A DNA stretch of 64,000 nt. Origin: Candidatus Heimdallarchaeum aukensis. GTDB lineage: Archaea > Asgardarchaeota > Heimdallarchaeia > Heimdallarchaeales > Heimdallarchaeaceae. Below, piece after piece: positions 8,929 through 63,242 of the stretch. The notes under the pieces are model-generated. The model saw only the letters and a list, made by a program, of their open reading frames with translations. It did not search any database and was not told where the DNA came from. Position 1 is the stretch's first letter. Every line of letters begins with the position of its first letter. A program made the position numbers and the translations under genes. The stretch covers positions 1,920,001-1,984,000 of the forward strand of contig CP084166.1 of NCBI GenBank assembly GCA_021513695.1, written 5' to 3'.

Positions 8929-9054
8929 TTTAGGCCAAAAAAAAATTTTGGTAGTACAGAAAAAGCGTGACACTTGGAGTGTGCGTAAAAGTTAATTCAA
9001 GTTTTAAAAAGCGAAAAAGGTAATAACGACCGTACGAAAATCGTCTGAAAAAGA

Positions 9055-10531
<1,477 letters not shown>

Positions 10532-18619: not shown

Positions 18620-18715
18620 GACCCTGTAGCTCAGCAGGATAGAGCGCTGGCCTTCTAATCTCAGTTGAGAGAAGCTAGTCAGCGGTCGACGGTTCGAATC
18701 CGCCCAGGGTCGCCA
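18620..18715 (+). tRNA. tRNA-Arg (anticodon TCT) with a 19-nt intron after the anticodon loop (about 18659..18677), CCA encoded
   Basis: Acceptor stem gaccctg/cagggtc; D stem gctc/gagc; anticodon stem ctggc/gtcag with loop cttctaa; T loop ttcgaat. One A-C mismatch in the T stem lowers confidence. Confidence 0.55.
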
Positions 18716-23196: not shown

Positions 23197-23595
23197 TTAT
23201 TCTTCGTCAATTTCTACATAGGATAAAATATCTGCAATCTTTGGTGCATGGCTAGATAGTACCGCTATCGCTGTTTTAAATTCTTCAATATCGCTTGTTC
23301 CACCAATTAAGTGAAAATCTCCAATAGATTTGATAATCAACAGCCCGTTTTTTCCTCGTACCATAACATCATTAATAGGTGAAAAATTTAGACGTTCTAA
23401 TGCCAATCTAGCTGCAGCAACAAGTGCTGCTCCAATAGCTGATAATTCTGTAGAATTAGCTTTTTTATCTCCTGCATAAAAAGCCACCCTATCACCTGTT
23501 GCAGTTAAGACCGCAAGAGCTTCTAATTTAGCTTGTTGTGTAATTTCTTTTAGTTCTTTAGCTAAAGCATAGGCAATTTTTCTTTCTAGTTTCAT
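23197..23595 (-). CDS. Roadblock/LC7 (MglB-like) domain protein
   Basis: 132 aa with an alpha-beta-alpha pattern and a length typical of Roadblock/LC7. Confidence 0.55.
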   Translation of the reverse strand: MKLERKIAYALAKELKEITQQAKLEALAVLTATGDRVAFYAGDKKANSTELSAIGAALVAAARLALERLNFSPINDVMVRGKNGLLIIKSIGDFHLIGGTSDIEEFKTAIAVLSSHAPKIADILSYVEIDEE

Positions 23596-31376: not shown

Positions 31377-32135
31377 TTATTTTTTGATTAATATTTTTTT
31401 ATCGATAGGATATAAAGTGAACCTATCTGGATTCTCTTTAACAATTTTAAACAGAATAGGTTCAATAAAAGATGCGGGAATATCAACCTCTGTTGAAATT
31501 TCGTCGAATGATATTTCTAGGGAGCTTTGGCTTTGTTCTTCAATTATCTGAATTACCAACTGGAAGGTTTGTTGCTCTGAAAGGAATATGGAATTACTTT
31601 TTATTGCTCCTTTAACTTCATTATCATTTAAAAGGGACTTGGCAAGTTTAAGAATGATTTCTTCATCCAAACCAAGCTCATCAGACAGATTCTTAAGAGA
31701 GAACTCTTCTTCACATTTCATTAAATTGTCTTTTAGGAGAGAGTAAACATAATTATAAGAGTAATAGAAGGTATGACCCAAAAAACCTTTTCCAAATTTT
31801 TGAAGTACAGAAGACAACAATTTCTCACTTATAGGCCATTGTTTTTTTAGATTTTGTATATCAAATTTACCTGTTTGCTTAAGCTTTTGTTCTATTTCTA
31901 CCATCAATTTTTCCTCAAGTGAAAAAAAGTATTTTTTCTTGGGTAAGAAAATACCAGAGATTAAACTTTCTGCTAGTAATCTATTTACTATATCAACTCT
32001 TTGATTATATGCTAGCTTTGTTTCTATTTTAGCTAAATTAGCGTATCTCTTTTCATCTAATATCTTGTAAAATTTTTCAATGAAATCTTTCTCTTTACTT
32101 ACAAACAGTGAACGTAAGAAACCAATTAATTTCAT
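31377..32135 (-). CDS. hypothetical protein
   Basis: 252 aa; no family recognised. Confidence 0.4.
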   Translation of the reverse strand: MKLIGFLRSLFVSKEKDFIEKFYKILDEKRYANLAKIETKLAYNQRVDIVNRLLAESLISGIFLPKKKYFFSLEEKLMVEIEQKLKQTGKFDIQNLKKQWPISEKLLSSVLQKFGKGFLGHTFYYSYNYVYSLLKDNLMKCEEEFSLKNLSDELGLDEEIILKLAKSLLNDNEVKGAIKSNSIFLSEQQTFQLVIQIIEEQSQSSLEISFDEISTEVDIPASFIEPILFKIVKENPDRFTLYPIDKKILIKK

Positions 32136-34851: not shown

Positions 34852-35439
34852 ATGATCTCGGAAAATTGGAAAACAAAAAAAACTCTGAAAATTGCAATAT
34901 TGGGTGAAGGTTCTGTAGGAAAGACAACAATATCAAAAAAATATTCTGAAGACTTATCTGAAACAGAAAAAATTACAATGACAAAAGGAGTCGACATTGC
35001 GGTAAAGAATCTTATTCATAAATCTACGCCCATTGCTTTACAAATTTGGGATTTTGCGGGTCAAAAGCAGTTTCGATTTATGATTGATATTTTCCTAAGA
35101 GGAGTAAAAGGAATCGTATATGTCTATGACGTAAACGATATAGAAACATTATACCTGCTTTATGAATTTGTAGAAATTGTGCGAAATTATTTTAAAGAAA
35201 ATAATATCTCCCAGGTCCCAGAAGTACTTGTAGGAAACAAAATTGATATTGGTGATGCAGAAGTTTCAATTGAAGATATATACAGCTTTATGAATACTCA
35301 CAACATTGAAAAGCATTTTCTCGTTAGCGGAATGTATGGAGATAATGTTTATCCATTATTTGATTATTTAATAGAAAAAATAGTCTTTGATGAGTCTAAG
35401 GAGCATATCTCTACAATAAATCAATATTCACTTAAATAA
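34852..35439 (+). CDS. Ras-superfamily small GTPase
   Basis: G1 GEGSVGKTT, G3 WDFAGQ, G4 GNKID. 195 aa. Confidence 0.75.
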   Translation: MISENWKTKKTLKIAILGEGSVGKTTISKKYSEDLSETEKITMTKGVDIAVKNLIHKSTPIALQIWDFAGQKQFRFMIDIFLRGVKGIVYVYDVNDIETLYLLYEFVEIVRNYFKENNISQVPEVLVGNKIDIGDAEVSIEDIYSFMNTHNIEKHFLVSGMYGDNVYPLFDYLIEKIVFDESKEHISTINQYSLK

Positions 35440-38452: not shown

Positions 38453-39859
38453 TTAACTATTAACATTTTTTTCTCCATAGTAAATAATAGACCACGGATA
38501 TTTAACTACGATTTCACTAATTACTCTACGGACTTTATTCTGTTCTGAGGTGTTATTATAAAATAAAATAAACACCTTTCCTCCTCGACTACGTTTCATC
38601 TTCTGATATACAGTTTTTGGACTATTAACTAAATCATAAACAATTAATACATCTGTTTGTGGAATATCAAGGTCACGTTCTCCAACAGAAGAAATTAATA
38701 ATACAGATTTTTCTTTCGCATTTTTAAAATTTATAAGAGGTTCCGCTTTTATAGTTGTTTTTCCTTCTAATACATAAACATTATAGCCAATAGATAAAAA
38801 TTGTTTTTTTAATGAGTAAATAGATGATAAATATGAACATAAAATAACAACTTTTTTGAATCTTTGCGCGACTTTTATTGTATAATTTTCTTTTCCTGTT
38901 TTCTGAGGATAGGGGGGCAATTGTTCAGGAGAAAATCCAAATCTAAGTAGATGTTTCCAAAAAGAGGAAACAGGCATAGAATAAACGTATTTCCTTAAAA
39001 TTAAAAGGTGATTTAACTTTTTTATTATTTCAGGTTCAATATCGAGAAATTGAAGATCATTTAAGAACATCTCATCGTTCTGAAGCTCACTAGAATGATC
39101 TTTCTTTATATTATCCTCTATTTTTTTAATTTCAAGTGATAGGAAATCTATAACTTCTTTTATTGAATCATCGTTTACTGGGTGAAGATAAATTTCTGTA
39201 TGGGTAATATAATTATTAATATCTGTTTTATTAAGATCTTCAAGATAAATGATATCAGTATTTGGAAAAAAGTCTAATAACGTAGACAATTCTTTTCTTT
39301 TGAAAACTTTCTTATCACTAGAGATTGTATGATAATCTCTTAAAGTCCCACTCATTCCTATAAATCTACAATGACTAAATCTAGATATTATGTGATTCCA
39401 TGGATTTCGCAATACTGTGTTATAACTAATTCTTCGAATTATAGTATCGATTTCATTTATAATTATTATATTAAAGGAAGATGCAATATTAGGGTACTTT
39501 TTGATTGTATTCATAAAAGATAAAGGTAGTGTAAGTATTATCCTGCTATTTTCTAAGATATATTTTCTTTGGATTGAACTGTGTTTTGAATGAACAACCC
39601 CTAAATCTTCAATGCCTCCATATCTATTGTTTAAGTAATCTTCTGTTTCTTGTAAACTTGATTGATTTTGAAGAAAAATCAAGATTTTCTCTTTTAAAAA
39701 AGCTTCTACTATTAAACGATAAATAATTACTCTTTTTCCCATCCCACAATCAAGTTCTAAAATAACATTCCGATTGTTATTAACAGAAGTCAAAATACGA
39801 TCAATTATATAGTTTTGATACTCACGATTCTCAATTCGATTTGATTCCAAAATCCTCAA
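38453..39859 (-). CDS. SF2 helicase-like protein (degenerate DExH motifs)
   Basis: Q-like REYQ motif; motif I LDCGMGKR; motif II-like IIINEID; SGT motif; C-terminal RecA-like domain. Confidence 0.45.
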   Translation of the reverse strand: MRILESNRIENREYQNYIIDRILTSVNNNRNVILELDCGMGKRVIIYRLIVEAFLKEKILIFLQNQSSLQETEDYLNNRYGGIEDLGVVHSKHSSIQRKYILENSRIILTLPLSFMNTIKKYPNIASSFNIIIINEIDTIIRRISYNTVLRNPWNHIISRFSHCRFIGMSGTLRDYHTISSDKKVFKRKELSTLLDFFPNTDIIYLEDLNKTDINNYITHTEIYLHPVNDDSIKEVIDFLSLEIKKIEDNIKKDHSSELQNDEMFLNDLQFLDIEPEIIKKLNHLLILRKYVYSMPVSSFWKHLLRFGFSPEQLPPYPQKTGKENYTIKVAQRFKKVVILCSYLSSIYSLKKQFLSIGYNVYVLEGKTTIKAEPLINFKNAKEKSVLLISSVGERDLDIPQTDVLIVYDLVNSPKTVYQKMKRSRGGKVFILFYNNTSEQNKVRRVISEIVVKYPWSIIYYGEKNVNS

Positions 39860-43381: not shown

Positions 43382-43816
43382 ATGACGAAAAGATTACCGT
43401 GGATACTTCCGGGCATAAGAAGACCTAAATTTAATCTTCATCAAGTAACATTTCGAATACCCACTGAAATTCCACAAAGTGTTTGGTATTTTATAGTATA
43501 TGGAATAATATTTTACATTTTCAGTGGTGGAGCTTATGATATCGTCAATAAAGATTATATTGCTCCATTGGGAAGTGGATCGCAAGGACAACCTCTTTTT
43601 GTTTATCCTGCCACACAAGCACAATTTCTTATTGAAGGAATAGTAGCTGGTTTTATCATTGCCTTTGCAGCTTTAAGTTTATACTTATTTGATTATGCAA
43701 CAAGATTTACCTTTGATGTGAACACGGCACAAAAAATTGAAGTAATAGCTTCAATATTTGTTTTAATCTGGTATGTTGTTATAGTGCTTTTATACAAGAA
43801 AAAAACAGGAGGATAA
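43382..43816 (+). CDS. membrane protein (hypothetical)
   Basis: 144 aa with 3-4 hydrophobic helices. Confidence 0.4.
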   Translation: MTKRLPWILPGIRRPKFNLHQVTFRIPTEIPQSVWYFIVYGIIFYIFSGGAYDIVNKDYIAPLGSGSQGQPLFVYPATQAQFLIEGIVAGFIIAFAALSLYLFDYATRFTFDVNTAQKIEVIASIFVLIWYVVIVLLYKKKTGG

Positions 43817-46678: not shown

Positions 46679-47737
46679 TTATTTTAAGAGTTTTAAAAGG
46701 ATTTTTTTTCTATTTTCAGTTTCTTCAGAAAAATATTCTGGAAATTTTTCTTTTATTTCGTTTTTCCATTCTTTTTTAGAGATAGAATTAGAAAATTTGA
46801 ATGGAAACAACTCATTAGCTATTTTAAACAGGCGTGCTTGCTCAATATAGCTAAAGAAATCTTTTTTGTTTGTTTTTGTCAAAGAAATGCCTATCTGGTG
46901 GTGGTTACCTTTTTTTCTTATTTTTGCTTTAATCCCAACTTCTGATAAGAGTTTTATCAGATACTTTTGTTCTTCAAACGTAAAGTTATTTGTACATAAG
47001 GATAAATCAGTACCTGAAAAATAACCGTCGTCAATATACCAAAATAATAAAACAGTTGGTGTTAGAGTAAGATCTTTTTTCAAAACCTTTTTTGTTTTAC
47101 CTAATTTATTTGAATACCAATTTTCCCAATAACTAAAAAATTCTACAGAGGAAGAAGTATCAAAGCCACAAGACCATTTTATTGATTCTGTATTACTCGG
47201 TTTAACAAATACCTTTAGTTTCGTAAAACTGCTAAATAGAGGAATAAGAGTTTTAATCCACTGAAACTCTAATATAGATTTATGGATTCTTAATGCAGCA
47301 GTATTTACTTTTGAGATTTTAGATACACATTTATTCCAATTAGAGATATCTGTGTTAGTTATAGCTTTTCCTTCATTTACTTTCTTTCTTAATTTTTCGG
47401 CTCTATCCAATAAACGGAGATATTCTGACAAAAGAGGTTGCTTCTTACTCGCTTGCAATTTTGTTTGCAATCGTAAATTTGCGTCTCCCAACATCATTCC
47501 TTCAATGATTTCTTGTATCTCTAAAGGGATAGGATGTGTAAATTCCTTGTTAATATGGTTTCTAGTTTTCGTCCAAAGTGAACCAGGAAAAGGTATTTTC
47601 AAACCCATTGAAGTTAAAAGAGGTTTTATAGTTCTTGGATCTTTATTCAATTCTTTTCCAATTACCTTTATTCCCTTTAATTCACCAACATACATTTTTA
47701 ACAGTTTTTTTTGTATTTCTGTTATTTCTAATGTCAT
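46679..47737 (-). CDS. free-standing LAGLIDADG-family endonuclease-like protein
   Basis: Motif 1 IEGMMLGDANLR and motif 2 LLFWYIDDGYFSG. 352 aa, host-like AT-rich codon usage. It is wedged between ppdK and nadE. Confidence 0.5.
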   Translation of the reverse strand: MTLEITEIQKKLLKMYVGELKGIKVIGKELNKDPRTIKPLLTSMGLKIPFPGSLWTKTRNHINKEFTHPIPLEIQEIIEGMMLGDANLRLQTKLQASKKQPLLSEYLRLLDRAEKLRKKVNEGKAITNTDISNWNKCVSKISKVNTAALRIHKSILEFQWIKTLIPLFSSFTKLKVFVKPSNTESIKWSCGFDTSSSVEFFSYWENWYSNKLGKTKKVLKKDLTLTPTVLLFWYIDDGYFSGTDLSLCTNNFTFEEQKYLIKLLSEVGIKAKIRKKGNHHQIGISLTKTNKKDFFSYIEQARLFKIANELFPFKFSNSISKKEWKNEIKEKFPEYFSEETENRKKILLKLLK

Positions 47738-49607: not shown

Positions 49608-50240
49608 ATGTTGGAAGAAATAGTTAAACAATGTCTGAAAAGAGGAAATTTAACACATATTGTAGGGCCACCAAAATCAGGAAAAAATACACTGTTATAT
49701 CATTTGGTATCAAAAGTGCGTAAAGGAGAGAAGGCAATAATTATTGATGCAGAAATAAGCGTGAGTGTTCAAAGACTTATAGAAATAACAAAATTCAAAG
49801 AAATCGAACTAGAAAGAATAATAATAATACAAACAAAAAATAGTTATGAGCAACACAAAACAGTGTTAAACCTGCATAATTTGATAGGTAGTAGAAAAAT
49901 AAAATTCATAGCAATAAATGGAATAACAAACCATTTCAGAAATAACGGAATAAAAATAGGAAAAGCAAATAAATACAATATTTTAGCCCTTCAAGTAGCA
50001 TATCTGAAAGAATTCGCAAAAAAAATGAAAATAGCAGTAATTGTAACAAATCAAATGAAAGGAGAAAGGGATAAATTCAGAGCTAGTATGGGGATAGTGG
50101 GTAAAAAAATCTTTGAAAAATATGTTGACACAACATTCGAAATTAATCAAGTAAATGAAAAATTATGGTCAATAAATAGCGATAAGAATTTTAGAAGTTT
50201 ATATTTAATCACAGAAGAAGGAATAAAGGTTTTAGATTAA
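49608..50240 (+). CDS. RecA-superfamily ATPase (RadB/KaiC-like)
   Basis: Walker A GPPKSGKNT. 210 aa. Confidence 0.5.
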   Translation: MLEEIVKQCLKRGNLTHIVGPPKSGKNTLLYHLVSKVRKGEKAIIIDAEISVSVQRLIEITKFKEIELERIIIIQTKNSYEQHKTVLNLHNLIGSRKIKFIAINGITNHFRNNGIKIGKANKYNILALQVAYLKEFAKKMKIAVIVTNQMKGERDKFRASMGIVGKKIFEKYVDTTFEINQVNEKLWSINSDKNFRSLYLITEEGIKVLD

Positions 50241-50525: not shown

Positions 50526-51578
50526 ATGAAATTTAAGACTCTTGCTTTCTTAATTCTTATAATGTCACCTTTTATTATGACAACAAAAGGACAATTTATT
50601 TTAGCTGCACCTAACACAGAAAAAGAATATGTGATCTTATTTGATGAATCACATGGCCAATATTTTAACCGTACTTTGATGAAAAGTGCTTTAAGTGCCA
50701 TAAATGATAGTTTAAATGTAAGATTTATCTTTTTCAATGAGTCGAAATTTAATTCTACTAATCTTCAGGGTGTTGATTTAGTTATTATTGGAAATCCTGG
50801 AATATACAAGAATTACAATTTGTCTTCGGAAGAGGTTGAGGTTATTCAAGATTATGTTGAAGCAGGAGGTTCATTATTTCTACTTGCTAATCCACTTTCT
50901 TCTGATACAAATATTACAGGACATGTTTCTTCCTTCAACGACATACTTAGTGCAAGATTATCAAAACTATCCTCAGCCAGATTCAGAACAGGATTAGATA
51001 AAAGTTCAACAGTTATAATGGATGATTATCATAATAAATATAATAATGAATCTTTTCTTTCAATAGTCAATTACAATACCTCTGATAATGAGTTTCTTGA
51101 AAAAAATAAGATTTTTGAGCAAACAAGTAAAGTTGAGAATTTAACAGTTTATTCTACTGCAATATCTTTTGACAGACCAGAAAAAGAAAACGCTATAGGT
51201 CGAACAGAAATAACTAGTTACGCATTAGAGAAAGATGGTTCAATCGTTCAAGATATGATAAATGGTTTTCTTGTTTGGTTATTTGCTAAAGAAATAGGAA
51301 ATGCACGAATAGTTCTTTCTGGTTCAACTATTATGTTCAGTGACTTGATAATTTATGAAGATCAGAAGTTTATTGATGAAGAACAAAACAAAGAACTATG
51401 GTTAAACTTAATCAACTGGTTACTACATATAACTCCTTATGAAGAAAGAAATCCTATAGCCATGCCTTTCTACGCTTTAGTTTTGTTAGCTTTAGGTTTT
51501 GCCGCAGTGGTTTTCGTTATCGCTTTATTGTTGTATAGTTACAAAAAACAAAAGAAAATAAATATAAAAATTAAGTAG
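50526..51578 (+). CDS. secreted, C-terminally anchored protein with many N-glycosylation sequons
   Basis: N-terminal signal peptide; at least 10 N-x-S/T sequons; C-terminus MPFYALVLLALGFAAVVFVIALLLYSYKKQKK. Confidence 0.45.
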   Translation: MKFKTLAFLILIMSPFIMTTKGQFILAAPNTEKEYVILFDESHGQYFNRTLMKSALSAINDSLNVRFIFFNESKFNSTNLQGVDLVIIGNPGIYKNYNLSSEEVEVIQDYVEAGGSLFLLANPLSSDTNITGHVSSFNDILSARLSKLSSARFRTGLDKSSTVIMDDYHNKYNNESFLSIVNYNTSDNEFLEKNKIFEQTSKVENLTVYSTAISFDRPEKENAIGRTEITSYALEKDGSIVQDMINGFLVWLFAKEIGNARIVLSGSTIMFSDLIIYEDQKFIDEEQNKELWLNLINWLLHITPYEERNPIAMPFYALVLLALGFAAVVFVIALLLYSYKKQKKINIKIK

Positions 51579-51604: not shown

Positions 51605-54600
51605 CTATTGTTCAAGAAGAAAATCTGATAAATTAACAGATTTCTTTTTCTCTGTTTTTCTAATTTTACGCTTTGATTTTTTATCAGCTGATCCATCATC
51701 AGGTAGGAACATTGTTAAAATGTTTTGTTTTAGTACGTCTATCCTAGATCGCAAATATTCTGAAACTGAATATTTCGAAACTAAATAATTGATAATATTA
51801 AGATATTTGGTTACTGATTTTTCAAAAACAGTAAGATTTAGCTTATTTGCACCACATTTTGTACAATATCCGCCCAAAGGAATACGACGATAGGTAGTAT
51901 TACAATTTGTGCAACGTATTTTTTGGCTACCAAATCTACGCATATTACCTATAAGATCTGGCAGAAATTGTTTGAAAATTACTCTTGTTGCTACATCGTC
52001 AACATCAACTGCTCTAATCTTACTAGCTAGTTCTAATTGTGCATCCACTTTTTCTTTCATTGTAGCTAAACGAGTATAAAGAGAAGATTTTTCGCCTACG
52101 AAAATTGAGGAAGTCTCATGACTATAGGAAAAACCTTCATAGGCAGCTTTTGTGTTTAACCTATGACTTACAATGTCAATTAAAGGGAGAACCTTCTTTG
52201 CGGGTAATGATTTCAGTGTAGATTCATAAAAAGACAAAGGATAAGAGTTACCTGTATCAACGTTATGAGACTCATCATCAACCTCAAAGGGATCTATTGT
52301 AGAAACCAAAATTAGCGGGGCATCCATTTGACCGCCTCTAACTTCTGGTAAAAAGAATTTTGAAAAATTAAGAAAAGCATCAAGAGCTAGAAGAATACTA
52401 TCCTCATCTCCATCGCAGTTCATCGTAATGCAACTAGTTGTCTGGAAATTATGTAACATTGTGTCATTTCTTATTGTTTCAACTTCCAAACAATATGAAG
52501 CCTCTTCTTTTGCAATATTATTTATTTCAGCTATTTGGTCACATATAGTATTATGTGCTTCTTTAAGTTCATAATAGTGATTGTTGTATTTTATCCGTCT
52601 ATTTTCAGGAAAACCTTTTTTAATAAATTGTTTCAGTTTTTCTTTTTTATTTTGATTAATTAGATCTAGATGTTGCATTATCCAAAGGTCTGCTCCTCTA
52701 ATAGATATTTTGTGAACAACTGTCTTTTTAGGCTCTTTTCCCAATTCTTTATATTTTTCCAATATTTTTTTGCCAAAATGTCCTTCTGGAGAAGATACTC
52801 TAGATCTTACGAATACACCAATGGTTGAAAAGAGATAAGTTATATCCTTTAATAATTCATTTGAAACAGAATAGAATGATATTTCCCCTACATCTTTTGA
52901 GAGCGTTCCATCTCCATCTAGATAGGCGGAAATAAAAGCTAATTTATATTTAGTTGGTACTGTATAGAGAAAGTTTGGCAAACGTTTTCTATAAGCTCCT
53001 TTCCCCATATTCCATGCATATGCGAAAAGATAGGCTAATATTCTTCCAGAACAAATAACGTTTCTTTCTTCGCTGATATAAGGAGTAAGACCTAGAGTTC
53101 GTTTTATTATTTCCACCAAATATTTTCTCATTTTTTCGTCTGGGATAGAAAAATTAATCTGATAACAGTTCTTATTATCCCGAATATGTCCTTCAGAAAT
53201 GTAATAACCTAGAATTCTCATTAACTCATCATTAAAAGGAAAATAGGGAGAAATAGTAAAATCATCTCTAGCCATCCCCAATCTTGCATCTGAAGGGATC
53301 TCATTCCAGTCAAAAATTCCTTCTTTTTGCAAAAGTTCTAAGTGGGATAAGGGGATAGAATCAAACCAGTGATTAGAAAAGAAGTATGTAGAATGAGGTA
53401 TATCGATTCCTTTTGAAAGAATATAATTTAGAAGTATCTTAGTACATGAAGAAGAGTTAATATTGCTGCTTTTTTCTTGAGAAAGTTTATTGCAGAAATC
53501 GTTTAACTTACTTTTTATCCAATTTCGGGCTTTTCTAAGTCTTACTGTGTGTTTAAATTCAGTAAACTTCTTGCTGTCAGGTAAGTTTTTTGCCAATTCC
53601 TCTAAAACATTTACTACTTTGTTATGTTGAAACCCTAACTCTGGAATCTTTGTTTTAATTGCAATATATTCGCCTATTTGTAAATTTCTTGCTTTCACAT
53701 TTTCGAAATCATTTGTCAGTTCATTCAACACGAGCATATTGTGGTCAGGTGTTACTGTTATTTCATTTCCACTTTTGGTTTTTATTTGCAACCATCTTTC
53801 ACTTTTTCCCTTAATCCAATGCTTGATGGGTTGTAAAATAGAAGAAGAGTTTTTTTGATCTAGACTAATGACCTTCCATTCTTTATGAAGATTCTCAATT
53901 GCAAATGTCCCAAAATCATCTACCAGCTTACTCTTAGCTCCTGATTTTATCTCTTCTTCTACTAGTTCTCCAATACTTTTTACAATGACCTGTTTCTTAT
54001 TTTCGTCCCAAATAAGTAGTTGTTCAGTTGGAAATAAACAATTTCTTCTTTTTGCTGCATGCCAATAAGGATGAGCTAATATTACTTTAGCATCAGTAAA
54101 TCCTATTAACCTTCCAGCAATACCTGCTGAAGTATGAGGAGCTAAACCTATAATTAAATGACCAACTAGGTCATTAATTGTTTTTGCTTTGTAAAAGGGA
54201 GGAAGTCCATACAATCTTTCTAACAACTCATCGATAAAATGAGAGACTTTTAGGAGATATTTACCTCCTTCCTCATTAACAATCACATCTTGAATTTTTA
54301 ATTCTAGTAGCTGATCTTCATTTTCTAGTAAATTCCCATGAATATCGTGTGTATAACCTATAGAATGGAGTTTTGAAATTGAAACACCAATTTCTTTTGG
54401 CTTAAAATGCGTAATTACAGCATCAGTAGCATCAAAACGTATTGTTCCATCACGGTATACAAATACATCGTTTAAAGAACGTAATATCCCTTTTACTATA
54501 AATTCTGGTATACGATGTTTATTCATCAGTTTTTTAACAGCTTTTACATTTTTAGGTAAATCAGAGTTAAATTCTCTTGCAATTTTTCTAAATTCTTCGT

Positions 54601-56776
54601 TAATAGGAAAGGGTTTAGTTTTGTAACTAATTAGAGGTATCCCACACCTTTTACATTTATCGTCATTAGATTCTAACCCACATCTTGGACAAAATTTAAT
54701 GATTTCTGTTACTACATTACAACGTGAACATATGGATAAATGCGTAGTAGAACCACATACATGACATTTTCTTTGTACTAATTCGATCTCTATAACTTTT
54801 TTTTCACTCGCGGAAACAATATTTCTTTGATTACCTCCTGCTTCACCAATTGGAAAAAGTAGATGCACTGGAGGTTTCATCTTTCTACTTTTAGCTTTTT
54901 CTGGACGCCCCATTCTTGCACCAGTATAACAAGGACACTTATCTCTCACTTTAATATATTTGTAGGAGTTAATTATTTCTAAAACAGTTTTTGCTTTATT
55001 TTCCACCGGAAGTAAACTTCCATTTTTAAAACCTAAAGATATTAGTAGAGTTTGCGAATGTTCCCCAAATAAAATTTTTCCATCCCTTATAGAGTGAGGA
55101 ATGCATATTTCTTCCAAAATTGTTTTTATCTCTTTATCATAAGGTAACTCTAAATTTTCATCTTTATTATAGTATGATGATATATATTCACGTAACCGAA
55201 TATATGCAGAAATTGAAATATCATTCCAATGATATGTATATTCAGGATGAAGTGGAATATCAAGTAAAAGCGATAGTCCTATAGCTTCTTCAGCGGTTGG
55301 GATAATGTTCAAGGGGTCTTTTATGAACTTATCAAACTTTTGTTTTTTATTTTTAAAAAACTGATTTATCTCTACTTCAGAAAAATTCATTAACTGCTTC
55401 TCAAGTTCTTTTGCCCACCATTCTTCACAATATCCAGAAGGTACAAGATCATGGTTAAACTGGTTAAATTCACCTACACCATAAAGCATATCTCCAAGAA
55501 AAAGAATCTTTTCTATTTGATCTTTTAATTGAATACCTTCTTCATAGGAATTAACTTTACAAACATTACCGTTTTTTAGAAGCACAATAGGTGGATGTAT
55601 AGAATCCACAGGCATGACAATGGCTCCTTTTCCGGGTCTTTCTGTTCGCAAATGTGTTCCACAAACCAAAAAATCATTTGTGATTGCAAAAAGTGCTGGA
55701 TGTACACCCATTGCAGCTAATCCAGTAATTCTAGAACGCCCATATCTAATCCTAAAACCACCTTTCGCGGATGGATGACTAAAAACTGGCCTTCCACCAA
55801 TTACGTCTTGAATATAACCTGTATCAGGCTTAATAAACAAATTATCTTGCTCAATTTCATGTTTACTTGTACCTTTTTCTTCATCAGTTTCTCCAGAATT
55901 CTCAATATTCTGGCTTGAGTGTATTTGTATTAAATCGGAAAACCAGTCCCAACCCTTTAATTTATGTTTTGATACTCTTTTTTCAAGTTTTTTTACTCTA
56001 CCCACAATACCGTCATTAAAAACTAAACAAGCACCTCCTCTAAGTCTATTAGTTTCAATACGTTTCAAATCTCTATTTCCAGAAACTTCAACTTTCTCAG
56101 TAGGTTCTCCTGTGATTTCAATGGGAAGATTTCTTGCCGCAAATCGCTGCTCCTCTTTAGTTGTGGGAAGTTGTAAATGCATTACTTTGTTGTAAAGATC
56201 TATTTCCTCTACCGTTCGCTCTATTTCTCTCTCTGTAGGTTTATACCTATCAAGTTTTAATGTTCGTCGTATGTGATCAGCCAACAAAACACTCATACCC
56301 GCTGCCGTACCACCAGCAGAGCGTATAGGTCCAGCATAGTAAACAGCTAAGTAGTCGGATCCGTCATCATTTTGCTTAATTTTTACTTTCGCTATACCTT
56401 CAAGAGGAGCTGCAGTGATGCTTTCAGTTATTATTGCCAATGATGTACGGAGTGCTTGCTCGGCGAGCTCAATTTTTTCAGAAGAAAAAAATTTACCTTC
56501 AGCTATTTCTTCTGCAATTTTAAATGCCACGCTTTCGCGAGAGAGACCTTGTCTTTCAAGTTCTCTAATTCTCTTCCCAACCCCTTTAGGTCCAATTAAT
56601 CCTTCAACTCGATCAGCAATATCTTTAGCGATAGGTATTTCAACTTCAGAAGAAGGATCATAACCTTTTTTTCTCGCCTGTTTAGCAATCCTATAAGTTT
56701 GTTCTATCAATGAATTAATTTCCTCAAAATATCCCCTAACATTTACTGAAATTAACTCGTCATCTGATATTTCCAT
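51605..56776 (-). CDS. polC: DNA polymerase II (PolD) large subunit DP2, interrupted by an intein
   Basis: N-terminal DP2 region; CxxC zinc clusters; conserved ...HAAKRRN / CDGDED... junction split by a 541-aa insertion. Confidence 0.9.
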   Translation of the reverse strand: MEISDDELISVNVRGYFEEINSLIEQTYRIAKQARKKGYDPSSEVEIPIAKDIADRVEGLIGPKGVGKRIRELERQGLSRESVAFKIAEEIAEGKFFSSEKIELAEQALRTSLAIITESITAAPLEGIAKVKIKQNDDGSDYLAVYYAGPIRSAGGTAAGMSVLLADHIRRTLKLDRYKPTEREIERTVEEIDLYNKVMHLQLPTTKEEQRFAARNLPIEITGEPTEKVEVSGNRDLKRIETNRLRGGACLVFNDGIVGRVKKLEKRVSKHKLKGWDWFSDLIQIHSSQNIENSGETDEEKGTSKHEIEQDNLFIKPDTGYIQDVIGGRPVFSHPSAKGGFRIRYGRSRITGLAAMGVHPALFAITNDFLVCGTHLRTERPGKGAIVMPVDSIHPPIVLLKNGNVCKVNSYEEGIQLKDQIEKILFLGDMLYGVGEFNQFNHDLVPSGYCEEWWAKELEKQLMNFSEVEINQFFKNKKQKFDKFIKDPLNIIPTAEEAIGLSLLLDIPLHPEYTYHWNDISISAYIRLREYISSYYNKDENLELPYDKEIKTILEEICIPHSIRDGKILFGEHSQTLLISLGFKNGSLLPVENKAKTVLEIINSYKYIKVRDKCPCYTGARMGRPEKAKSRKMKPPVHLLFPIGEAGGNQRNIVSASEKKVIEIELVQRKCHVCGSTTHLSICSRCNVVTEIIKFCPRCGLESNDDKCKRCGIPLISYKTKPFPINEEFRKIAREFNSDLPKNVKAVKKLMNKHRIPEFIVKGILRSLNDVFVYRDGTIRFDATDAVITHFKPKEIGVSISKLHSIGYTHDIHGNLLENEDQLLELKIQDVIVNEEGGKYLLKVSHFIDELLERLYGLPPFYKAKTINDLVGHLIIGLAPHTSAGIAGRLIGFTDAKVILAHPYWHAAKRRNCLFPTEQLLIWDENKKQVIVKSIGELVEEEIKSGAKSKLVDDFGTFAIENLHKEWKVISLDQKNSSSILQPIKHWIKGKSERWLQIKTKSGNEITVTPDHNMLVLNELTNDFENVKARNLQIGEYIAIKTKIPELGFQHNKVVNVLEELAKNLPDSKKFTEFKHTVRLRKARNWIKSKLNDFCNKLSQEKSSNINSSSCTKILLNYILSKGIDIPHSTYFFSNHWFDSIPLSHLELLQKEGIFDWNEIPSDARLGMARDDFTISPYFPFNDELMRILGYYISEGHIRDNKNCYQINFSIPDEKMRKYLVEIIKRTLGLTPYISEERNVICSGRILAYLFAYAWNMGKGAYRKRLPNFLYTVPTKYKLAFISAYLDGDGTLSKDVGEISFYSVSNELLKDITYLFSTIGVFVRSRVSSPEGHFGKKILEKYKELGKEPKKTVVHKISIRGADLWIMQHLDLINQNKKEKLKQFIKKGFPENRRIKYNNHYYELKEAHNTICDQIAEINNIAKEEASYCLEVETIRNDTMLHNFQTTSCITMNCDGDEDSILLALDAFLNFSKFFLPEVRGGQMDAPLILVSTIDPFEVDDESHNVDTGNSYPLSFYESTLKSLPAKKVLPLIDIVSHRLNTKAAYEGFSYSHETSSIFVGEKSSLYTRLATMKEKVDAQLELASKIRAVDVDDVATRVIFKQFLPDLIGNMRRFGSQKIRCTNCNTTYRRIPLGGYCTKCGANKLNLTVFEKSVTKYLNIINYLVSKYSVSEYLRSRIDVLKQNILTMFLPDDGSADKKSKRKIRKTEKKKSVNLSDFLLEQ
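52418..54040 (-). mobile_element. intein (541 aa) with a LAGLIDADG homing-endonuclease domain inside polD-DP2
   Basis: Begins with Cys (CLFPTEQ...). LAGLIDADG motifs GYYISEGH and ISAYLDGDGT. C-terminal block ...LHNFQTTSCITMN is followed by the extein Cys of CDGDED. Confidence 0.8.
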
Positions 56777-56885
56777 TACAAATAATTAATTGGTAAATGG
56801 CTTTTAGTTTTTTTCATATTCGTGAGTTAAAATATTTTACTAAATAGACGAACTATTTTTTAATATTATAAATAAACAGGTATTT

Positions 56886-56998
56886 CCCCTTTCACTGGAA
56901 ATTTTATTGTTATATTCTAATTCAACTTTTGTTGTGAATGGTTGTGAACATGTGAATAAAGAATCAGACTAATTCATCTTCCAGTGGAAATAAAGGGG
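56886..56998. promoter_or_regulatory. candidate replication origin: two inverted ORB-like elements flanking a 78-bp AT-rich stretch
   Basis: ORB-b is ttccagtggaaataaagggg (56979..56998). ORB-a is cccctttcactggaa (56886..56900), the reverse complement of ttccagtgaaagggg. Both resemble the archaeal ORB core TCCAGTGGAAA followed by a G-string. Confidence 0.5.
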
Positions 56999-57291
56999 TT
57001 AGTTAAGAATATATTTAATTATTTAATAAAATGAAGTAGTAAAATAAATCACATGTACATGCCATCTAGCAAGTAATTAAAGATTTTTTTTGTTGTGAAC
57101 AGCGGTGAATGTTTTAAACTCAAGAGTTGTGAAACAAAATAAAGACATTCTAAAGTATTCTGTCGGTTATATCTGTTCACTTATCTTCAAATCATTGTGA
57201 ATTTTGAAAACAACGTATCTGCTAGGTATTACGTTTGCAGTTCTCATAAAAAACCAATAAAGAATCAACAAAAAATCAAAAAAAAAGAAAA

Positions 57292-57726
57292 TCATGCATT
57301 AATTTTCTCAGCTTTATATTTTTCTAATATCTTGGCTATTCTTTCTGCAATTGGCCCTGTACCTTTTACTCCTTCCTCTGAAACTGTGAATCTATCTAAC
57401 ACTTGTATGATTCCTGCTTCTTCTATAATTTTCACATTTTGTGGTTGAAACATAGCTGATAATTCCTTTGCAAGACCAGTAAGATCAAAGGGTTCTTCTG
57501 CCAAAGTTATTTCGGAAATACTCTTCCCTGCAATAAAAACTCTAAATATTTTCACATTATCACTTTCAGCATCACCCAACACAAGATTCAAGGATTGATC
57601 TTGGATTCCACGTAATATTCCAGTATAGACTCTACCTGATTCTAAAATAATTTTTACACGTTTGTTCAAAAGTGCACTCAATTCTAACAGAAATTCTCGA
57701 TTTGGATTACTTGGCATATCTATCAA
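57292..57726 (-). CDS. Sm-like (LSm) archaeal protein with a C-terminal extension
   Basis: Sm1-like segment RVKIILESGRVYTGILRGIQDQSLNLVLGDA. Confidence 0.6.
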   Translation of the reverse strand: MIDMPSNPNREFLLELSALLNKRVKIILESGRVYTGILRGIQDQSLNLVLGDAESDNVKIFRVFIAGKSISEITLAEEPFDLTGLAKELSAMFQPQNVKIIEEAGIIQVLDRFTVSEEGVKGTGPIAERIAKILEKYKAEKINA

Positions 57727-61761: not shown

Positions 61762-62055
61762 TTATATTTGTAAACAACTATAATTTTAGTATACTCCACT
61801 TTGTGTTTTATATAGTTTTAGATTCAGCTTATTTCTTACACATATTTTTGCAGAGTATAATTGTTACTGCTGTTTGATATGTGTTTTATATAGTTTTAGA
61901 TAATGTTCAAGTTAAAAGTAATAAAAGGCTAAATACCCAAAGTGATATACAAAAAAGATTGCTACCTGATTAAAAATAGATAATAGTTGTTACTGCCATC
62001 AGAATTGATTAAAAAAAAATTAAAGATCAAGGCTTCTTAACGGAAATAATTTTTT

Positions 62056-62079
62056 GATAGTGATAGTGATAGTGATAGG
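62056..62079. repeat. hexanucleotide microsatellite (GATAGT)x3-4
   Basis: Reads gatagtgatagtgatagtgatagg. The same CTATCACTATCA motif occurs on the other strand around 18398..18440. Confidence 0.8.
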
Positions 62080-62281
62080 AATAATAATAACGATAGCAAT
62101 TGCATAATAATATCGAAACAGAAAATGTTAAAACGTAAGTGGAGAGCCAAAGCGGAAAAATGAGAAATCTTACCACACCACATAATATTATGTGGTAAGA
62201 TATTTCAATCAAGCAAAGTGGGTTTCCAGCCGAATAACAACAAAAATCAACTAAAAATGAGCTGAAAGACAAAATAAAACT

Positions 62282-62728: not shown

Positions 62729-63242
62729 TAGAACTCACTTAGTAATTCTATTATTATATATCGCATATTCATTTATAAAACTACATATTACCAATAGTAC
62801 TTTGGTGAGGTATTACAATAAAAGGTATTCTTTTTTTCTAGCCAGTAATATCACACTTAGAAAGGGTATAATCACTTTTTTTAAAAAAAAGTCAGTAATT
62901 TATAAACGATTTTAAAAGATGTAAAGATACCCGTTTATTTCTATTCGAGAATATATAATTTATTTAAGAGTGAAAAATATGATTTTCAAAAAGTTTATAT
63001 ATATAGAAGTTTGCAAAACTATGGGAGGGTATGTACTTTTAGTATATTAACTAATAGAGAAATTAGGTATGCAGTAAGTAAAGTTCCAGTTGACGTGTAC
63101 GGGAGTCTGTGCTTCTTTAAAAGACATTTTTATAGATTTGTACACATTTGCTTTAAAACCATATTTCATCATAGTTTTTTTTCGATAAGCAACTTCTTTG
63201 CTCTTCCAATAAGTTTAATAAAAAAAATCAACATTTTCGCTT

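What the first reader, a model, noticed from the sequence alone, without database searches (positions are those of the whole stretch)
56780..57291. Candidate oriC: inverted ORB-like elements flanking an AT-rich unwinding stretch, adjacent to the PolD large-subunit gene
The element ttccagtggaaataaagggg (56979..56998) matches the archaeal origin-recognition-box core plus G-string. A second element in inverted orientation, ttccagtgaaagggg (56886..56900), lies 78 bp away across an AT-rich segment. Inverted ORBs around an unwinding element is the standard Orc1/Cdc6-dependent origin layout.

No orc1/cdc6 gene is adjacent. The neighbours are polD-DP2 and an Sm-like gene. The same intergenic region also repeats a TTGTGAA motif at least five times.
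Basis: partly seen in the sequence, partly recalled or inferred. Interest (0 to 1): 0.6.

Follow-up and report, generated by a model that had tools for sequence, protein, structure and literature searches.

The report
Candidate Heimdallarchaeum chromosomal replication origin
This 515-base gap between genes in an Asgard archaeon (Candidatus Heimdallarchaeum) carries a textbook archaeal origin-recognition box, and the initiator gene orc1 lies 10 kb away just outside the window, so it is most likely the chromosome's replication start site, with an added family-specific repeat (TTGTGAA) of unknown partner.

Summary
TTCCAGTGGAAATAAAGGGG (56979-56998, +) and the inverted TTCCAGTGAAAGGGG (56886-56900, -) are the only exact TTCCAGTGNAA sites in 64 kb. 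Five TTGTGAA copies lie in the same gap.

The genome is a Heimdallarchaeum, probably H. aukensis. A canonical orc1/cdc6 gene sits about 10.2 kb to the right, just past the window end.

In five other Heimdallarchaeaceae, a Hodarchaeum and a Promethearchaeote, ORB-bearing non-coding stretches lie 1.3-10 kb from orc1, whatever the flanking genes. The same 19-base ORB pattern occurs in at least 120 metagenome contigs. Ten of the 18 with 3 kb or more on both sides carry orc1. The usual layout, G-strings pointing outward, matches the window.

The gap is 78% identical to the sister species, against 56% at fourfold sites of two of three flanking genes.

Corrections:
- The inter-ORB segment is not especially AT-rich.
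- ORB-B is only a mini-ORB and lost its G-run in the sister species.
- GC skew is uninformative at this scale.

TTGTGAAY boxes are confined to Heimdallarchaeia origins. A small winged-helix gene accompanies orc1 across Asgard archaea.

Verdict: a probable Orc1-type oriC, a new member of a known kind, not yet functionally tested.

The parts
56777..57291 (.). Whole 515-bp intergenic region, the candidate oriC
   Evidence: It is the fourth longest of 46 gaps, whose median is 86 bp. It is 78% identical to Ca. H. endolithica PR6 over 436 ungapped columns, against 56% at fourfold sites of DP2 and the PAPS-reductase gene. Rfam finds nothing. There is no RNA-structure signal.
56979..56998 (+). ORB-A, a full origin recognition box: TTCCAGTGGAAA core, TAAA, then the GGGG G-string
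   Evidence: Sequence read. It is the only perfect core in 73.5 kb. It sits inside a 36-nt block (56972-57007) that is identical in PR6. Equivalents are TTCCAGTGGAAATGAAGGGG in YT1_002 (L030:8720) and TTCCAGTGGAAATGGAGGGG in L281:3323.
56886..56900 (-). ORB-B, an inverted mini-ORB: TTCCAGTGAAA followed directly by GGGG
   Evidence: It lies 78 bp from ORB-A with the G-runs pointing outward. In PR6 a 78-bp deletion bounded by TTTCAY microhomology leaves TTCCAATGAAAAAAA. Inverted partners lie at about 60-101 bp in L027, L030 and L074.
56932..56957 (+). Box cluster 1, between the ORBs: TTGTGAAT, TTGTGAAC and ATGTGAAT with 10- and 8-bp phasing
   Evidence: The stretch GTTGTGAACATGTGAAT is identical in PR6. 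TTGTGAAC about 30 nt upstream of ORB-A is invariant in the four-species alignment.
57000..57092 (.). AT-rich, fast-evolving spacer on the G-string side of ORB-A, one of two candidate unwinding regions
   Evidence: The 50-mer at 57000 is 90% A+T. The least stable 40-mer starts at 57009 and ranks in the top 0.05% of the window. Identity to PR6 is only 50-60% over 57015-57095, so composition is kept but sequence is not.
57093..57201 (.). Box cluster 2: TTGTGAAC (57093), GGTGAAT (57104), TTGTGAAA (57127), GTGAAC on the minus strand (57176-57180) and TTGTGAAT (57195)
   Evidence: All the GTGAA cores are conserved in PR6 while their flanks vary. This stretch is 82-85% identical to PR6.
57226..57232 (+). 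GTATTAC, a second short motif over-represented in these origin regions
   Evidence: Seven copies seen against 0.17 expected across four species' ORB regions. Its function is unknown.
57262..57291 (-). T-rich run downstream of the Lsm stop codon, probably the Lsm terminator
   Evidence: On the minus strand this reads as T-runs directly after the stop. That archaeal transcription ends at oligo-T is general knowledge, so this is an inference.
51605..56776 (-). PolD large subunit DP2 with a LAGLIDADG intein, the left neighbour; its start codon faces the gap
   Evidence: Pfam finds PolC_DP2_N, PolC_DP2_central and PolC_DP2_cat, plus Intein_splicing and LAGLIDADG_3.
57292..57717 (-). Lsm/Sm-like protein with an Lsm_C domain, the right neighbour; its 3' end faces the gap
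   Evidence: Pfam finds LSM and Lsm_C. The start was chosen at the Met. The exact protein was found on metagenome contigs.

Best explanation
The gap between polD-DP2 and the Lsm gene is a chromosomal replication origin of the classical archaeal Orc1/Cdc6 type, in a Heimdallarchaeum (Asgard) genome.

Proposed mechanism, by analogy with Sulfolobus oriC1. The Orc1 protein is encoded about 10 kb to the right, just outside the window. It binds as a monomer with fixed polarity to the full box ORB-A and, more weakly, to the inverted mini-box ORB-B. Its winged-helix domain reads the TCCAGTGGA dyad and its AAA+ domain reads the G-string. The two oppositely oriented Orc1 molecules recruit MCM hexamers to the roughly 110-bp interval between them or to the AT-rich stretch next to ORB-A, where the DNA opens.

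Arrays of TTGTGAAY boxes lie between and beside the ORBs. They are a Heimdallarchaeia-specific accessory element, presumably bound by a second protein. That would be functionally analogous to the ucm/UBP element of Sulfolobales or the G-rich enhancer of haloarchaeal oriC1.

Shown here: the sequence elements, their conservation, their linkage to orc1, and purifying selection on the gap.

Inferred: Orc1 binding, MCM loading, firing in vivo, and what the boxes do.
For: - **Canonical ORB.** ORB-A matches 12 of 13 positions of the Pyrococcus ORB1 mini-ORB and keeps the invariant TTCC and GAA. G-strings are read by the Orc1 AAA+ domain (PMC3936714).
- **The motif marks orc1-linked loci across archaea.** At least 120 metagenome contigs match TTCCAGTGGAAATNAAGGGG. 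Of these, 28 carry orc1, mostly within 500 bp, some at 1.2-2.6 kb and one at 10.2 kb. Ten of the 18 with 3 kb or more on both flanks carry it.
- **Layout.** An inverted partner on the dyad side, with G-strings outward, is seen in 48 of 125 ORBs, against 11 on the other side. The window has this layout at 78 bp.
- **orc1 is close.** A 405-aa Orc1/Cdc6 (AAA_22, Cdc6_lid, WHD_Cdc6) lies at window-equivalent 67192-68409, on a contig 100% identical to the window over 10.7 kb. It is 50-58% identical to Orc1 of Odin-, Thor- and Verstraetearchaeota and Methanocella, so it is the slowly evolving canonical type. The short gaps flanking orc1 hold no ORB, and ORB-A is the only full ORB in the 20 kb.
- **Comparative evidence.** The same ORB plus TGTGAA-box non-coding element lies at varying distances from orc1, with different flanking genes and orientations, which argues for an autonomous cis element rather than a promoter:
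  - PR6: 10 kb, same gene order as the window.
  - L027: 5 kb, after an inverted Lsm block.
  - L281: 3.5 kb.
  - YT1_002 (L030) and L074: 1.3 kb.
  - Hodarchaeum: ORBs near orc1.
  - A Promethearchaeote: a textbook inverted ORB pair 1.9 kb from orc1.
- **Selection.** The gap is 78% identical to PR6, against 56% at fourfold sites of two of three flanking genes (78% in the short Lsm gene). The ORB-A block is 36 of 36 identical.
- **Boxes.** TTGTGAA is the most enriched 7-mer in these regions, 15 seen against 0.4 expected.
Against: - No functional data exist, and no whole-genome skew or coverage profile could be computed.
- Within the 73.5 kb in hand, GC skew follows the coding strand (0.125 +/- 0.014) and shows no change across the gap (-0.016 +/- 0.017).
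- There is only one full ORB. ORB-B has a one-base-shorter dyad and a misplaced G-run, and it lost that G-run in the sister species.
- In Sulfolobus and Haloarcula both inverted ORBs are required. In Pyrococcus a lone mini-ORB does not hold Cdc6 in vivo.
- The inter-ORB segment is not notably AT-rich.
- The origin is 10 kb from orc1, whereas most characterised origins abut it.
- Gap length is not unusual for this window, which has several gaps of 400-635 bp.
- From general knowledge: some archaea, such as Thermococcus kodakarensis, carry an ORB origin that is dispensable. A canonical-looking origin therefore need not fire.
Confidence: 0.66

Rival explanations
1. The site binds Orc1 but is not an origin. 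The ORB would act as an operator controlling polD-DP2 transcription, or as a titration site that buffers free Orc1. The haloarchaeal ORB-rich oriC2D region and the ORB cluster inside Thermococcales dp1 are precedents. Replication would start elsewhere.
For: - ORB-B lies about 110 bp upstream of the DP2 start codon.
- Cdc6 binds an ORB cluster inside dp1 in Pyrococcus.
- ORB-rich regions can act as negative regulators by titrating Cdc6.
- Only one full ORB is present, and orc1 is not adjacent.
Against: - In L027, L030, L074 and L281 the same element is not next to DP2. It sits in varied gene contexts, including convergent and tail-to-head, so control of DP2 is not its conserved role.
- No other ORB-bearing gap exists in the 20 kb around orc1 that could serve as the true origin.
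- Titration regions described so far carry many ORBs (11 in oriC2D), not one or two.
Confidence: 0.14
2. The gap is mainly a transcription-regulatory region or a chromosome-organisation site, such as a segregation or centromere-like site. It would be defined by the TTGTGAAY box arrays and bound by a winged-helix protein. The single ORB would be incidental or a relic of an origin that has moved.
For: - The boxes often form TTCACA-N2-6-TGTGAA palindromes or 10-bp phased direct repeats, as expected for dimeric or cooperative HTH binding.
- In the Promethearchaeote L283 the few boxes lie in the orc1 upstream gap, away from the ORB pair.
- The nearest solved relatives of the linked winged-helix protein are small archaeal transcription factors and, weakly (E about 0.07), the plasmid segregation protein AspA.
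Against: - ORB-A is the best conserved block of the gap (36 of 36 identical to PR6) and recurs nearly unchanged in species whose gaps are otherwise unalignable. A relic would not behave this way.
- Boxes and ORBs co-localise in six Heimdallarchaeaceae and in Hodarchaeum.
Confidence: 0.12
3. The resemblance is chance, or the region is a structured non-coding RNA gene.
For: The genome is AT-rich and the gap holds many short repeats that could arise by chance. One example is the 12-nt repeat AATAAAGAATCA, which is not conserved in PR6.
Against: - A 20-nt match to a pre-specified consensus has an expectation of about 1e-5 in 64 kb at this base composition (my calculation).
- The element is conserved across species.
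- Rfam finds nothing above E = 1.
- Folding z-scores of the conserved block are +0.20 and -1.26.
Confidence: 0.03

Closest known systems
Sulfolobus/Saccharolobus oriC1 (Orc1-1-dependent; ORB3-DUE-ORB2 with the ucm motif bound by UBP)
   Same: - Inverted ORBs, each bound by one Orc1 monomer with defined polarity.
- A core interval of about 110-130 bp.
- A short accessory motif between the ORBs.
- This origin type is described as the most widely conserved in archaea (PMC12141716).
   Different: - In Sulfolobus, orc1-1 abuts the origin. Here it is 10 kb away.
- Sulfolobus has three full ORBs and a clearly AT-rich interval. Here there is one full ORB and one mini-ORB, and the interval has average composition.
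- The accessory motif here is TTGTGAAY in many copies, not a single 11-bp ucm.
- UBP is reported to be confined to Sulfolobales and Desulfurococcales.
Pyrococcus/Thermococcales oriC (ORB1/ORB2 inverted repeats plus 13-bp mini-ORBs; oriC-cdc6-dp1-dp2 cluster)
   Same: - Nearly the same core sequence: TTCCAGTGGAACT there, TTCCAGTGGAAAT here.
- A mix of full ORBs and mini-ORBs.
- The origin is physically linked to PolD genes and orc1. In Hodarchaeum and the Promethearchaeote, dp1 lies one or two genes from orc1.
   Different: - Thermococcales have many mini-ORBs and a second ORB cluster inside dp1. No ORB is seen in this window's dp1 (21619-23169).
- Here the origin abuts dp2, not cdc6, and that adjacency is specific to the genus.
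Haloarchaeal oriC1 (Haloarcula hispanica)
   Same: Two inverted ORBs with G-strings and a lineage-specific repeated element inside the pair that modulates efficiency (PMC3936714).
   Different: - Haloarchaeal ORBs have extended G-strings.
- The accessory element there is a G-rich inverted repeat.
- The cdc6 gene is adjacent.

Membership tests
Archaeal Orc1/Cdc6-dependent replication origin (ORB type) | At least one origin recognition box: a dyad core (TTCC...GAA, TCCAGTGGAAA-like) followed by a G-string | tested here: met
   ORB-A is TTCCAGTGGAAATAAAGGGG at 56979-56998. It matches the Pyrococcus mini-ORB at 12 of 13 positions. The same 19-base pattern recurs in at least 120 metagenome contigs, which are enriched for orc1.
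Archaeal Orc1/Cdc6-dependent replication origin (ORB type) | Two or more ORBs in inverted orientation | tested here: met
   ORB-B lies on the opposite strand 78 bp away with the G-runs outward, which is the prevailing layout (48 against 11). ORB-B is only a mini-ORB, with a shorter dyad and a misplaced G-run, and it lost the G-run in PR6.
Archaeal Orc1/Cdc6-dependent replication origin (ORB type) | An AT-rich duplex unwinding element flanked by the ORBs | tested here: inconclusive
   The inter-ORB 78 bp is 74% A+T, equal to the gap mean, and ranks only at the 14th-37th percentile for instability. The least stable 40-mer (57009) lies outside the pair, on the G-string side of ORB-A.
Archaeal Orc1/Cdc6-dependent replication origin (ORB type) | Linkage to an orc1/cdc6 initiator gene | tested here: met
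   orc1 lies 10.2 kb to the right, outside the window, so it is linked but not adjacent. In relatives the distance is 1.3-5 kb. One metagenome locus also shows 10.2 kb.
Archaeal Orc1/Cdc6-dependent replication origin (ORB type) | Conservation of the non-coding element in related genomes | tested here: met
   Six Heimdallarchaeaceae species carry an ORB plus boxes near orc1. The gap evolves more slowly than fourfold sites of two of three flanking genes.
Archaeal Orc1/Cdc6-dependent replication origin (ORB type) | A strand-compositional (GC skew or Z-curve) inflection at the site | tested here: inconclusive
   Only 73.5 kb was available. The skew there is explained by the coding strand, with no effect of side.
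Archaeal Orc1/Cdc6-dependent replication origin (ORB type) | Initiator binding and initiation in vivo (ChIP, EMSA, marker frequency, initiation-point mapping, ARS assay) | not testable with these tools
   No experimental data were found for any Asgard origin in the searchable literature.
ucm/UBP-type accessory element of crenarchaeal origins | A short conserved motif between the ORBs, bound by the UBP protein, with a ubp gene in the genome | not tested
   The position is analogous, since box cluster 1 lies between the ORBs. The ucm sequence is not given in the text I could read, and UBP is reported as restricted to Sulfolobales and Desulfurococcales. I therefore claim functional analogy only, not membership.
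Iteron-type plasmid or viral origin | Tandem 17-22-bp iterons next to a rep gene, with similarity to mobile-element DNA | tested here: not met
   The boxes are 8 bp and only locally phased. The neighbours are DP2 and Lsm, with no rep gene. blastn finds no match to plasmid or phage collections.

The most novel reading that the evidence does not exclude
Asgard archaeal origins may be two-part. Beside the universal Orc1-ORB pair they would use a lineage-specific second recognition system: arrays of TTGTGAAY boxes (Heimdallarchaeaceae and Hodarchaeales) read by the small winged-helix protein whose gene sits next to orc1 or the ORBs. That family (motif GPLTR..EL..TGIPRTTLYD.L..LI..G.V.K...RGRPKV.FK) is found in Heimdallarchaeaceae, Hodarchaeum, Promethearchaeota and one further contig. 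This protein would act as an origin accessory or licensing factor, analogous in role (not in fold) to UBP, to WhiP/Cdt1 or to bacterial Fis/IHF. My evidence shows only co-location of the boxes, the ORBs, this gene and orc1. It does not show binding.
Probability: 0.2. Interest if true: 0.7.

Novelty: new member of a known kind. Interest (0 to 1): 0.45.

Why it matters
I found no description of an Asgard replication origin in the searchable literature. Asgard archaea are the closest known prokaryotic relatives of eukaryotes, and eukaryotic origins have largely lost sequence definition.

This locus shows that Heimdallarchaeum keeps the almost universal archaeal ORB nearly letter for letter, linked to a canonical Orc1. 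That gives a concrete, testable site: coordinates for coverage or skew analysis on the closed genomes, and oligonucleotides for Orc1 binding.

Two further leads bear on a question the Sulfolobus ucm/UBP study left open, namely whether other archaeal lineages use accessory origin-binding factors. One is the TTGTGAAY box arrays. The other is the small winged-helix gene linked to orc1 and found only in the Asgard contigs among the loci sampled.

If the site is simply a standard origin, the result is useful annotation but not surprising.

Tried and rejected
- **Rfam.** Neither gathering thresholds over the window nor E up to 10 over the gap gave a family hit in the gap.
- **RNA folding.** The conserved block 57085-57250 has z-scores of +0.20 and -1.26 on the two strands, so no structured RNA is indicated. 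The ssDNA hairpin across the ORB pair (z = -2.6) only restates the inverted repeat.
- **Promoter and terminator scan.** The sigma-70 and intrinsic-terminator scan is not meaningful for an archaeon and found nothing above chance.
- **GC skew.** The cumulative curve peaks near 52 kb, but the regression shows this is a coding-strand effect, so it says nothing about replication.
- **12-nt direct repeat.** AATAAAGAATCA (56955 and 57256) is not conserved in PR6 and is treated as chance.
- **DP2 upstream regions in 15 more distant Heimdall MAGs (L002-L016).** The upstream gene differs, the gap is short and there is no ORB. Adjacency to DP2 is therefore genus-specific and not the defining context.
- **L024.** Its apparently longer gap is only a different gene call.
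- **L029.** Its 2.3-kb gene-free stretch is a 16S rRNA gene, not an origin.
- **Viral-contig scan for TTGTGAANNNTTGTGAA.** L174, from a neighbouring sample number, is unrelated.
- **blastn of the gap against plasmid and phage collections.** No match.
- **GTGAA boxes in the orc1 upstream gap.** They are not consistently conserved there. That gap instead holds a different conserved motif, CGACAAAGTTAWAR.
- **ORB-like site inside DP2.** At 55000-55011 it has one mismatch, but in PR6 it is degraded to two mismatches by synonymous changes, so it is treated as chance.
- **Search for the Methanothermobacter mini-ORB sequence.** I wanted to compare it with the boxes, but the literature search found no paper.
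Full report
**1. What is in the sequence**

The finding covers the 515-bp gap 56777-57291. On the left is a PolD large-subunit gene with an intein (51605-56776, minus strand). On the right is an Lsm/Lsm_C gene (57292-57717, minus strand).

Both quoted elements are present as described. TTCCAGTGGAAATAAAGGGG lies at 56979-56998 on the plus strand; I call it ORB-A. TTCCAGTGAAAGGGG lies at 56886-56900 on the minus strand; I call it ORB-B. They are 78 bp apart with their G-runs pointing outward.

TTCCAGTGNAA matches exactly only at these two places in 64 kb. TTGTGAA is at chance frequency in the window overall (18 copies), but five of them lie in 56932-57201, all on the plus strand. Counting GTGAA on both strands gives nine sites in about 300 bp. 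That is the densest cluster in 73.5 kb, against 0.65 expected.

- ORB-B is not a full box. Its dyad is one base shorter (GTGAAA rather than GTGGAAA) and its G-run abuts the core instead of following 4 nt later.
- The 78 bp between the boxes is 74% A+T. That is the same as the whole gap and only a little above the window mean of 68.6%. The least stable 40-mer of the gap starts at 57009, just beyond the G-string of ORB-A.

**2. Whose genome, and where is orc1**

A scan of reference genomes with the DP2 N-terminus returned only Heimdallarchaeota. The closest is the closed genome of Ca. Heimdallarchaeum endolithica PR6, at 91% amino-acid identity. A protein from the same contig is named by NCBI as Ca. 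Heimdallarchaeum aukensis. The window therefore probably comes from that species.

Pfam scans of 40 window ORFs found no Orc1/Cdc6. They did find other replication genes: PolD DP1, RPA, a type IA topoisomerase, an XPB-like helicase and a RadB-like ATPase.

Looking up the Lsm protein and a 92-aa window protein on public contigs gave sequence 100% identical to the window over 10.7 kb, extending 9.5 kb beyond its right end. A 405-aa Orc1/Cdc6 (AAA_22, Cdc6_lid, WHD_Cdc6) lies there at the window-equivalent position 67192-68409, plus strand. That is 10.2 kb from ORB-A. It is preceded by a 104-aa winged-helix gene and a divergently transcribed DUF6788 gene.

The short gaps flanking orc1 contain no ORB. 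ORB-A is the only full ORB in these 20 kb. PR6 has the same gene order from DP2 to orc1. The Orc1 is 50-58% identical to Orc1 of Odin-, Thor- and Verstraetearchaeota and Methanocella, so it is the slowly evolving canonical initiator.

**3. Is the ORB motif really a marker of Orc1 origins?**

From the literature:
- The Pyrococcus mini-ORB overlapping ORB1 is TTCCAGTGGAACT. TTCC and GAA are its invariant motifs. A lone mini-ORB does not hold Cdc6 in vivo (PMC1904270).
- The G-string is read by the Orc1 AAA+ domain, and both inverted ORBs are needed for Haloarcula oriC1 (PMC3936714).
- Sulfolobus oriC1 has inverted ORB2 and ORB3 within a 130-bp interval, and both are required (PMC12141716).

I also tested this empirically. 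tblastn with 20 Orc1 proteins found orc1 on 28 of them, including 10 of the 18 that have at least 3 kb on both sides of the match. Distances were mostly under 500 bp. Eight were 1.2-2.6 kb and one was 10.2 kb.

An inverted core with two or fewer mismatches within 400 bp lies on the dyad side (G-strings outward) for 48 of 125 ORBs, and on the G-string side for 11. The window's layout is therefore the common one.

**4. Comparative evidence in Asgard archaea**

| Genome (locus) | Orc1 identity to window | ORB(s) found | Distance to orc1 | Context |
|---|---|---|---|---|
| Ca. H. endolithica PR6 (L001, L153) | not determined | ORB-A inside a 36-nt identical block; ORB-B reduced to TTCCAATGAAAAAAA | about 10 kb | same order as window; a 78-bp deletion bounded by TTTCAY repeats removed ORB-B's G-run |
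| Third species (L027) | 90% | perfect-core inverted box; degraded ORB-A homologue TTCCAGATGAAGTGAAACGGTTACTTAAG | about 5 kb | Lsm block inverted; 1.5-kb gene-free stretch after Lsm |
| L281 | 72% | TTCCAGTGGAAATGGAGGGG | 3.5 kb | 827-bp gap |
| YT1_002 (L030) | 78% | TTCCAGTGGAAATGAAGGGG, inverted partner 89 bp away | 1.3 kb | only the DUF6788 and winged-helix genes lie between |
| L074 | not determined (88% to Heimdall Orc1 P0007) | full ORB, inverted partner 101 bp away | 1.3 kb | as YT1_002 |
| Hodarchaeum mangrovi (L282) | 53% | TTCCAAAGGAAATGAAGGGG and TTCCAATGGAAATTAAGGGG | about 2-3 kb | the two ORBs flank a small winged-helix gene |
| Promethearchaeote (L283) | 52% | inverted pair, G-strings outward, AT-rich spacer of about 150 bp | 1.9 kb | winged-helix gene between the pair and orc1 |

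In the more distant Heimdall MAGs the gene upstream of DP2 is different and there is no ORB there. Adjacency to DP2 is therefore a feature of the genus only.

The flanking genes and their orientations differ from species to species, while the element stays within 1.3-10 kb of orc1. That fits an autonomous cis element better than a promoter.

Against PR6 the gap is 78% identical over 436 ungapped columns. Fourfold-degenerate sites are 56% identical in DP2 and the PAPS-reductase gene, and 78% in the short Lsm gene. Within the gap, the ORB-A block and the box-bearing stretches are 82-93% identical. The AT-rich stretch 57015-57095 is only 50-60% identical, so there composition is kept rather than sequence.

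**5. The TTGTGAA boxes**

Across four species' ORB regions, TTGTGAA is the most over-represented 7-mer (15 seen, 0.4 expected). GTATTAC is also enriched (7 seen, 0.17 expected).

Fifty-three oriented instances give the consensus w-T-T-GTGAA-Y. They often occur as direct repeats 10 bp apart or as TTCACA-N2-6-TGTGAA palindromes. In each Heimdallarchaeaceae locus examined, box density peaks at the ORB region at 6-8 per 400 bp, against about 0.4 expected.

Boxes also accompany the Hodarchaeum ORBs. In the Promethearchaeote the few copies lie in the orc1 upstream gap instead. Around the ORBs of the 120 other metagenome loci they are not enriched (0.72 against 0.50 per kb); the one exception, L074, is itself a Heimdall contig. 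The boxes are thus a lineage-specific accompaniment of the origin.

Their position, partly between the two ORBs, recalls two known accessory elements. One is the ucm motif of Sulfolobales, which is essential for oriC1 and is bound by the small protein UBP. The other is the G-rich enhancer inside haloarchaeal oriC1. This is an analogy of role only, and membership was not tested. Alternatively the boxes could be degenerate ORB half-sites, since ORB-B itself reads CCAGTGAAA. I could not distinguish these possibilities.

**6. A linked winged-helix gene**

The 104-aa protein encoded just upstream of orc1 has homologues next to orc1 or the ORBs in all the Heimdallarchaeaceae loci, in Hodarchaeum (two copies, one lying between two ORBs), in the Promethearchaeote and in contig L033, where it also lies between ORBs.

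An HMM built from these sequences hit two of the 120 ORB loci from diverse archaea strongly: L074, which is Heimdall, and L033. It gave one further weak hit beside an orc1 gene and no hit in 120 viral control loci. Its nearest solved relatives are small archaeal transcription factors. It is a candidate, and no more than that, for the protein that binds the boxes.

**7. What could not be settled**

Within the 73.5 kb available, GC skew is explained by the coding strand (0.125 +/- 0.014). It shows no change across the gap (-0.016 +/- 0.017; third codon positions +0.023 +/- 0.024). The closed genomes could not be read in full, so neither skew nor coverage could be profiled. I found no paper describing an Asgard origin. 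Rfam, RNA folding, plasmid and phage similarity searches and a viral-contig scan were all negative or uninformative.

**8. Verdict**

This is most likely the Orc1-dependent chromosomal origin of a Heimdallarchaeum, or one of its origins. It is built from one full ORB, one inverted mini-ORB, an adjacent AT-rich stretch and family-specific TTGTGAAY box arrays. Its initiator gene lies 10 kb away, just outside the window.

It is a new member of a well-known kind. The open points are whether it fires in vivo, where the DNA opens, and what binds the boxes. My confidence that it is a replication origin is about 0.66. The main rival, at 0.14, is an Orc1-binding site that regulates rather than initiates.

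Noticed in passing
L025:13469-13783 (window-equivalent about 66711-67025, outside the window); alignment A3: A small winged-helix gene of about 100 aa (conserved motif GPLTR..EL..TGIPRTTLYD.L..LI..G.V.K...RGRPKV.FK) sits next to orc1 or the ORBs. This holds in Heimdallarchaeaceae, Hodarchaeum (two copies), a Promethearchaeote and contig L033. Its HMM hits almost none of 120 ORB loci from other archaea and none of 120 viral control loci.
   Followed up: partly
L282:7105-7947 and L033:2746-3076: In Hodarchaeum mangrovi and in L033, two ORBs flank the small winged-helix gene with their G-strings pointing inward. This is the opposite of the usual outward layout.
   Followed up: no
L025:13862-13875, and the same gap in L027, L029 and L030: A conserved motif CGACAAAGTTA(A/T)A(G/C) lies about 75-90 nt upstream of the orc1 start codon in four Heimdallarchaeaceae species. 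It is probably the orc1 promoter or an operator.
   Followed up: no
window 56818-56895: This 78-bp segment is present here but absent from Ca. H. endolithica PR6 and a close relative (L152). It is bounded by TTTCAT/TTTCAC microhomology. The deletion removed the G-run of ORB-B and part of the DP2 upstream region.
   Followed up: yes
window 9054-10531: A complete archaeal 16S rRNA gene has no 23S rRNA gene next to it, so the rRNA genes appear to be unlinked. In relative L029 a 16S gene lies about 1.4 kb upstream of the winged-helix-orc1 pair.
   Followed up: no
window 18620-18715: ARAGORN calls a 96-nt tRNA with an odd four-base anticodon, and Rfam scores it as a tRNA. It is probably an intron-containing tRNA.
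   Followed up: no
window 17497-18117, 46679-47737 and DP2 residues about 933-1437: Two free-standing LAGLIDADG homing-endonuclease ORFs, plus a LAGLIDADG intein inside PolD DP2. The DP2 of several more distant Heimdall MAGs is about 1190 aa, so it lacks the intein.
   Followed up: no
window 21619-23169, 28848-30962, 3773-5875, 38453-39859, 49608-50240: The window is rich in replication and repair genes: PolD DP1, a multi-OB RPA, a type IA topoisomerase, an XPB-like helicase and a RadB-like ATPase. In Hodarchaeum and the Promethearchaeote, dp1 lies one or two genes from orc1.
   Followed up: partly
window 23197-23595, 24713-26962, 31377-32135, 34852-35439, 43382-43816, 50526-51578, 13346-16861: Several genes have eukaryote-like domains: Roadblock/LC7, STT3, a UFM1 E3-ligase-like domain, a Ras/Arf-family small GTPase, OST3/OST6, an OST48/IFT52-GIFT-like protein and a 1171-aa leucine-rich-repeat protein.
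   Followed up: no
window 55000-55011 (minus strand, inside DP2): An ORB-like sequence, TTCCGGTGGAAAATAAAGC, with one mismatch to the core. In PR6 it is degraded to TTCCAATAGAAA by synonymous changes, so it is probably chance.
   Followed up: yes
window 61762-62281 and 62729-63242; L027:5693-5704: Two further gaps of about 515 bp flank a 148-aa gene of unknown function. In species L027 the equivalent gap holds an ORB-like TTCAAGTGGAAATCATAGGG. No such site is present in the window's gaps, although GTATTAC-like motifs recur there.
   Followed up: partly
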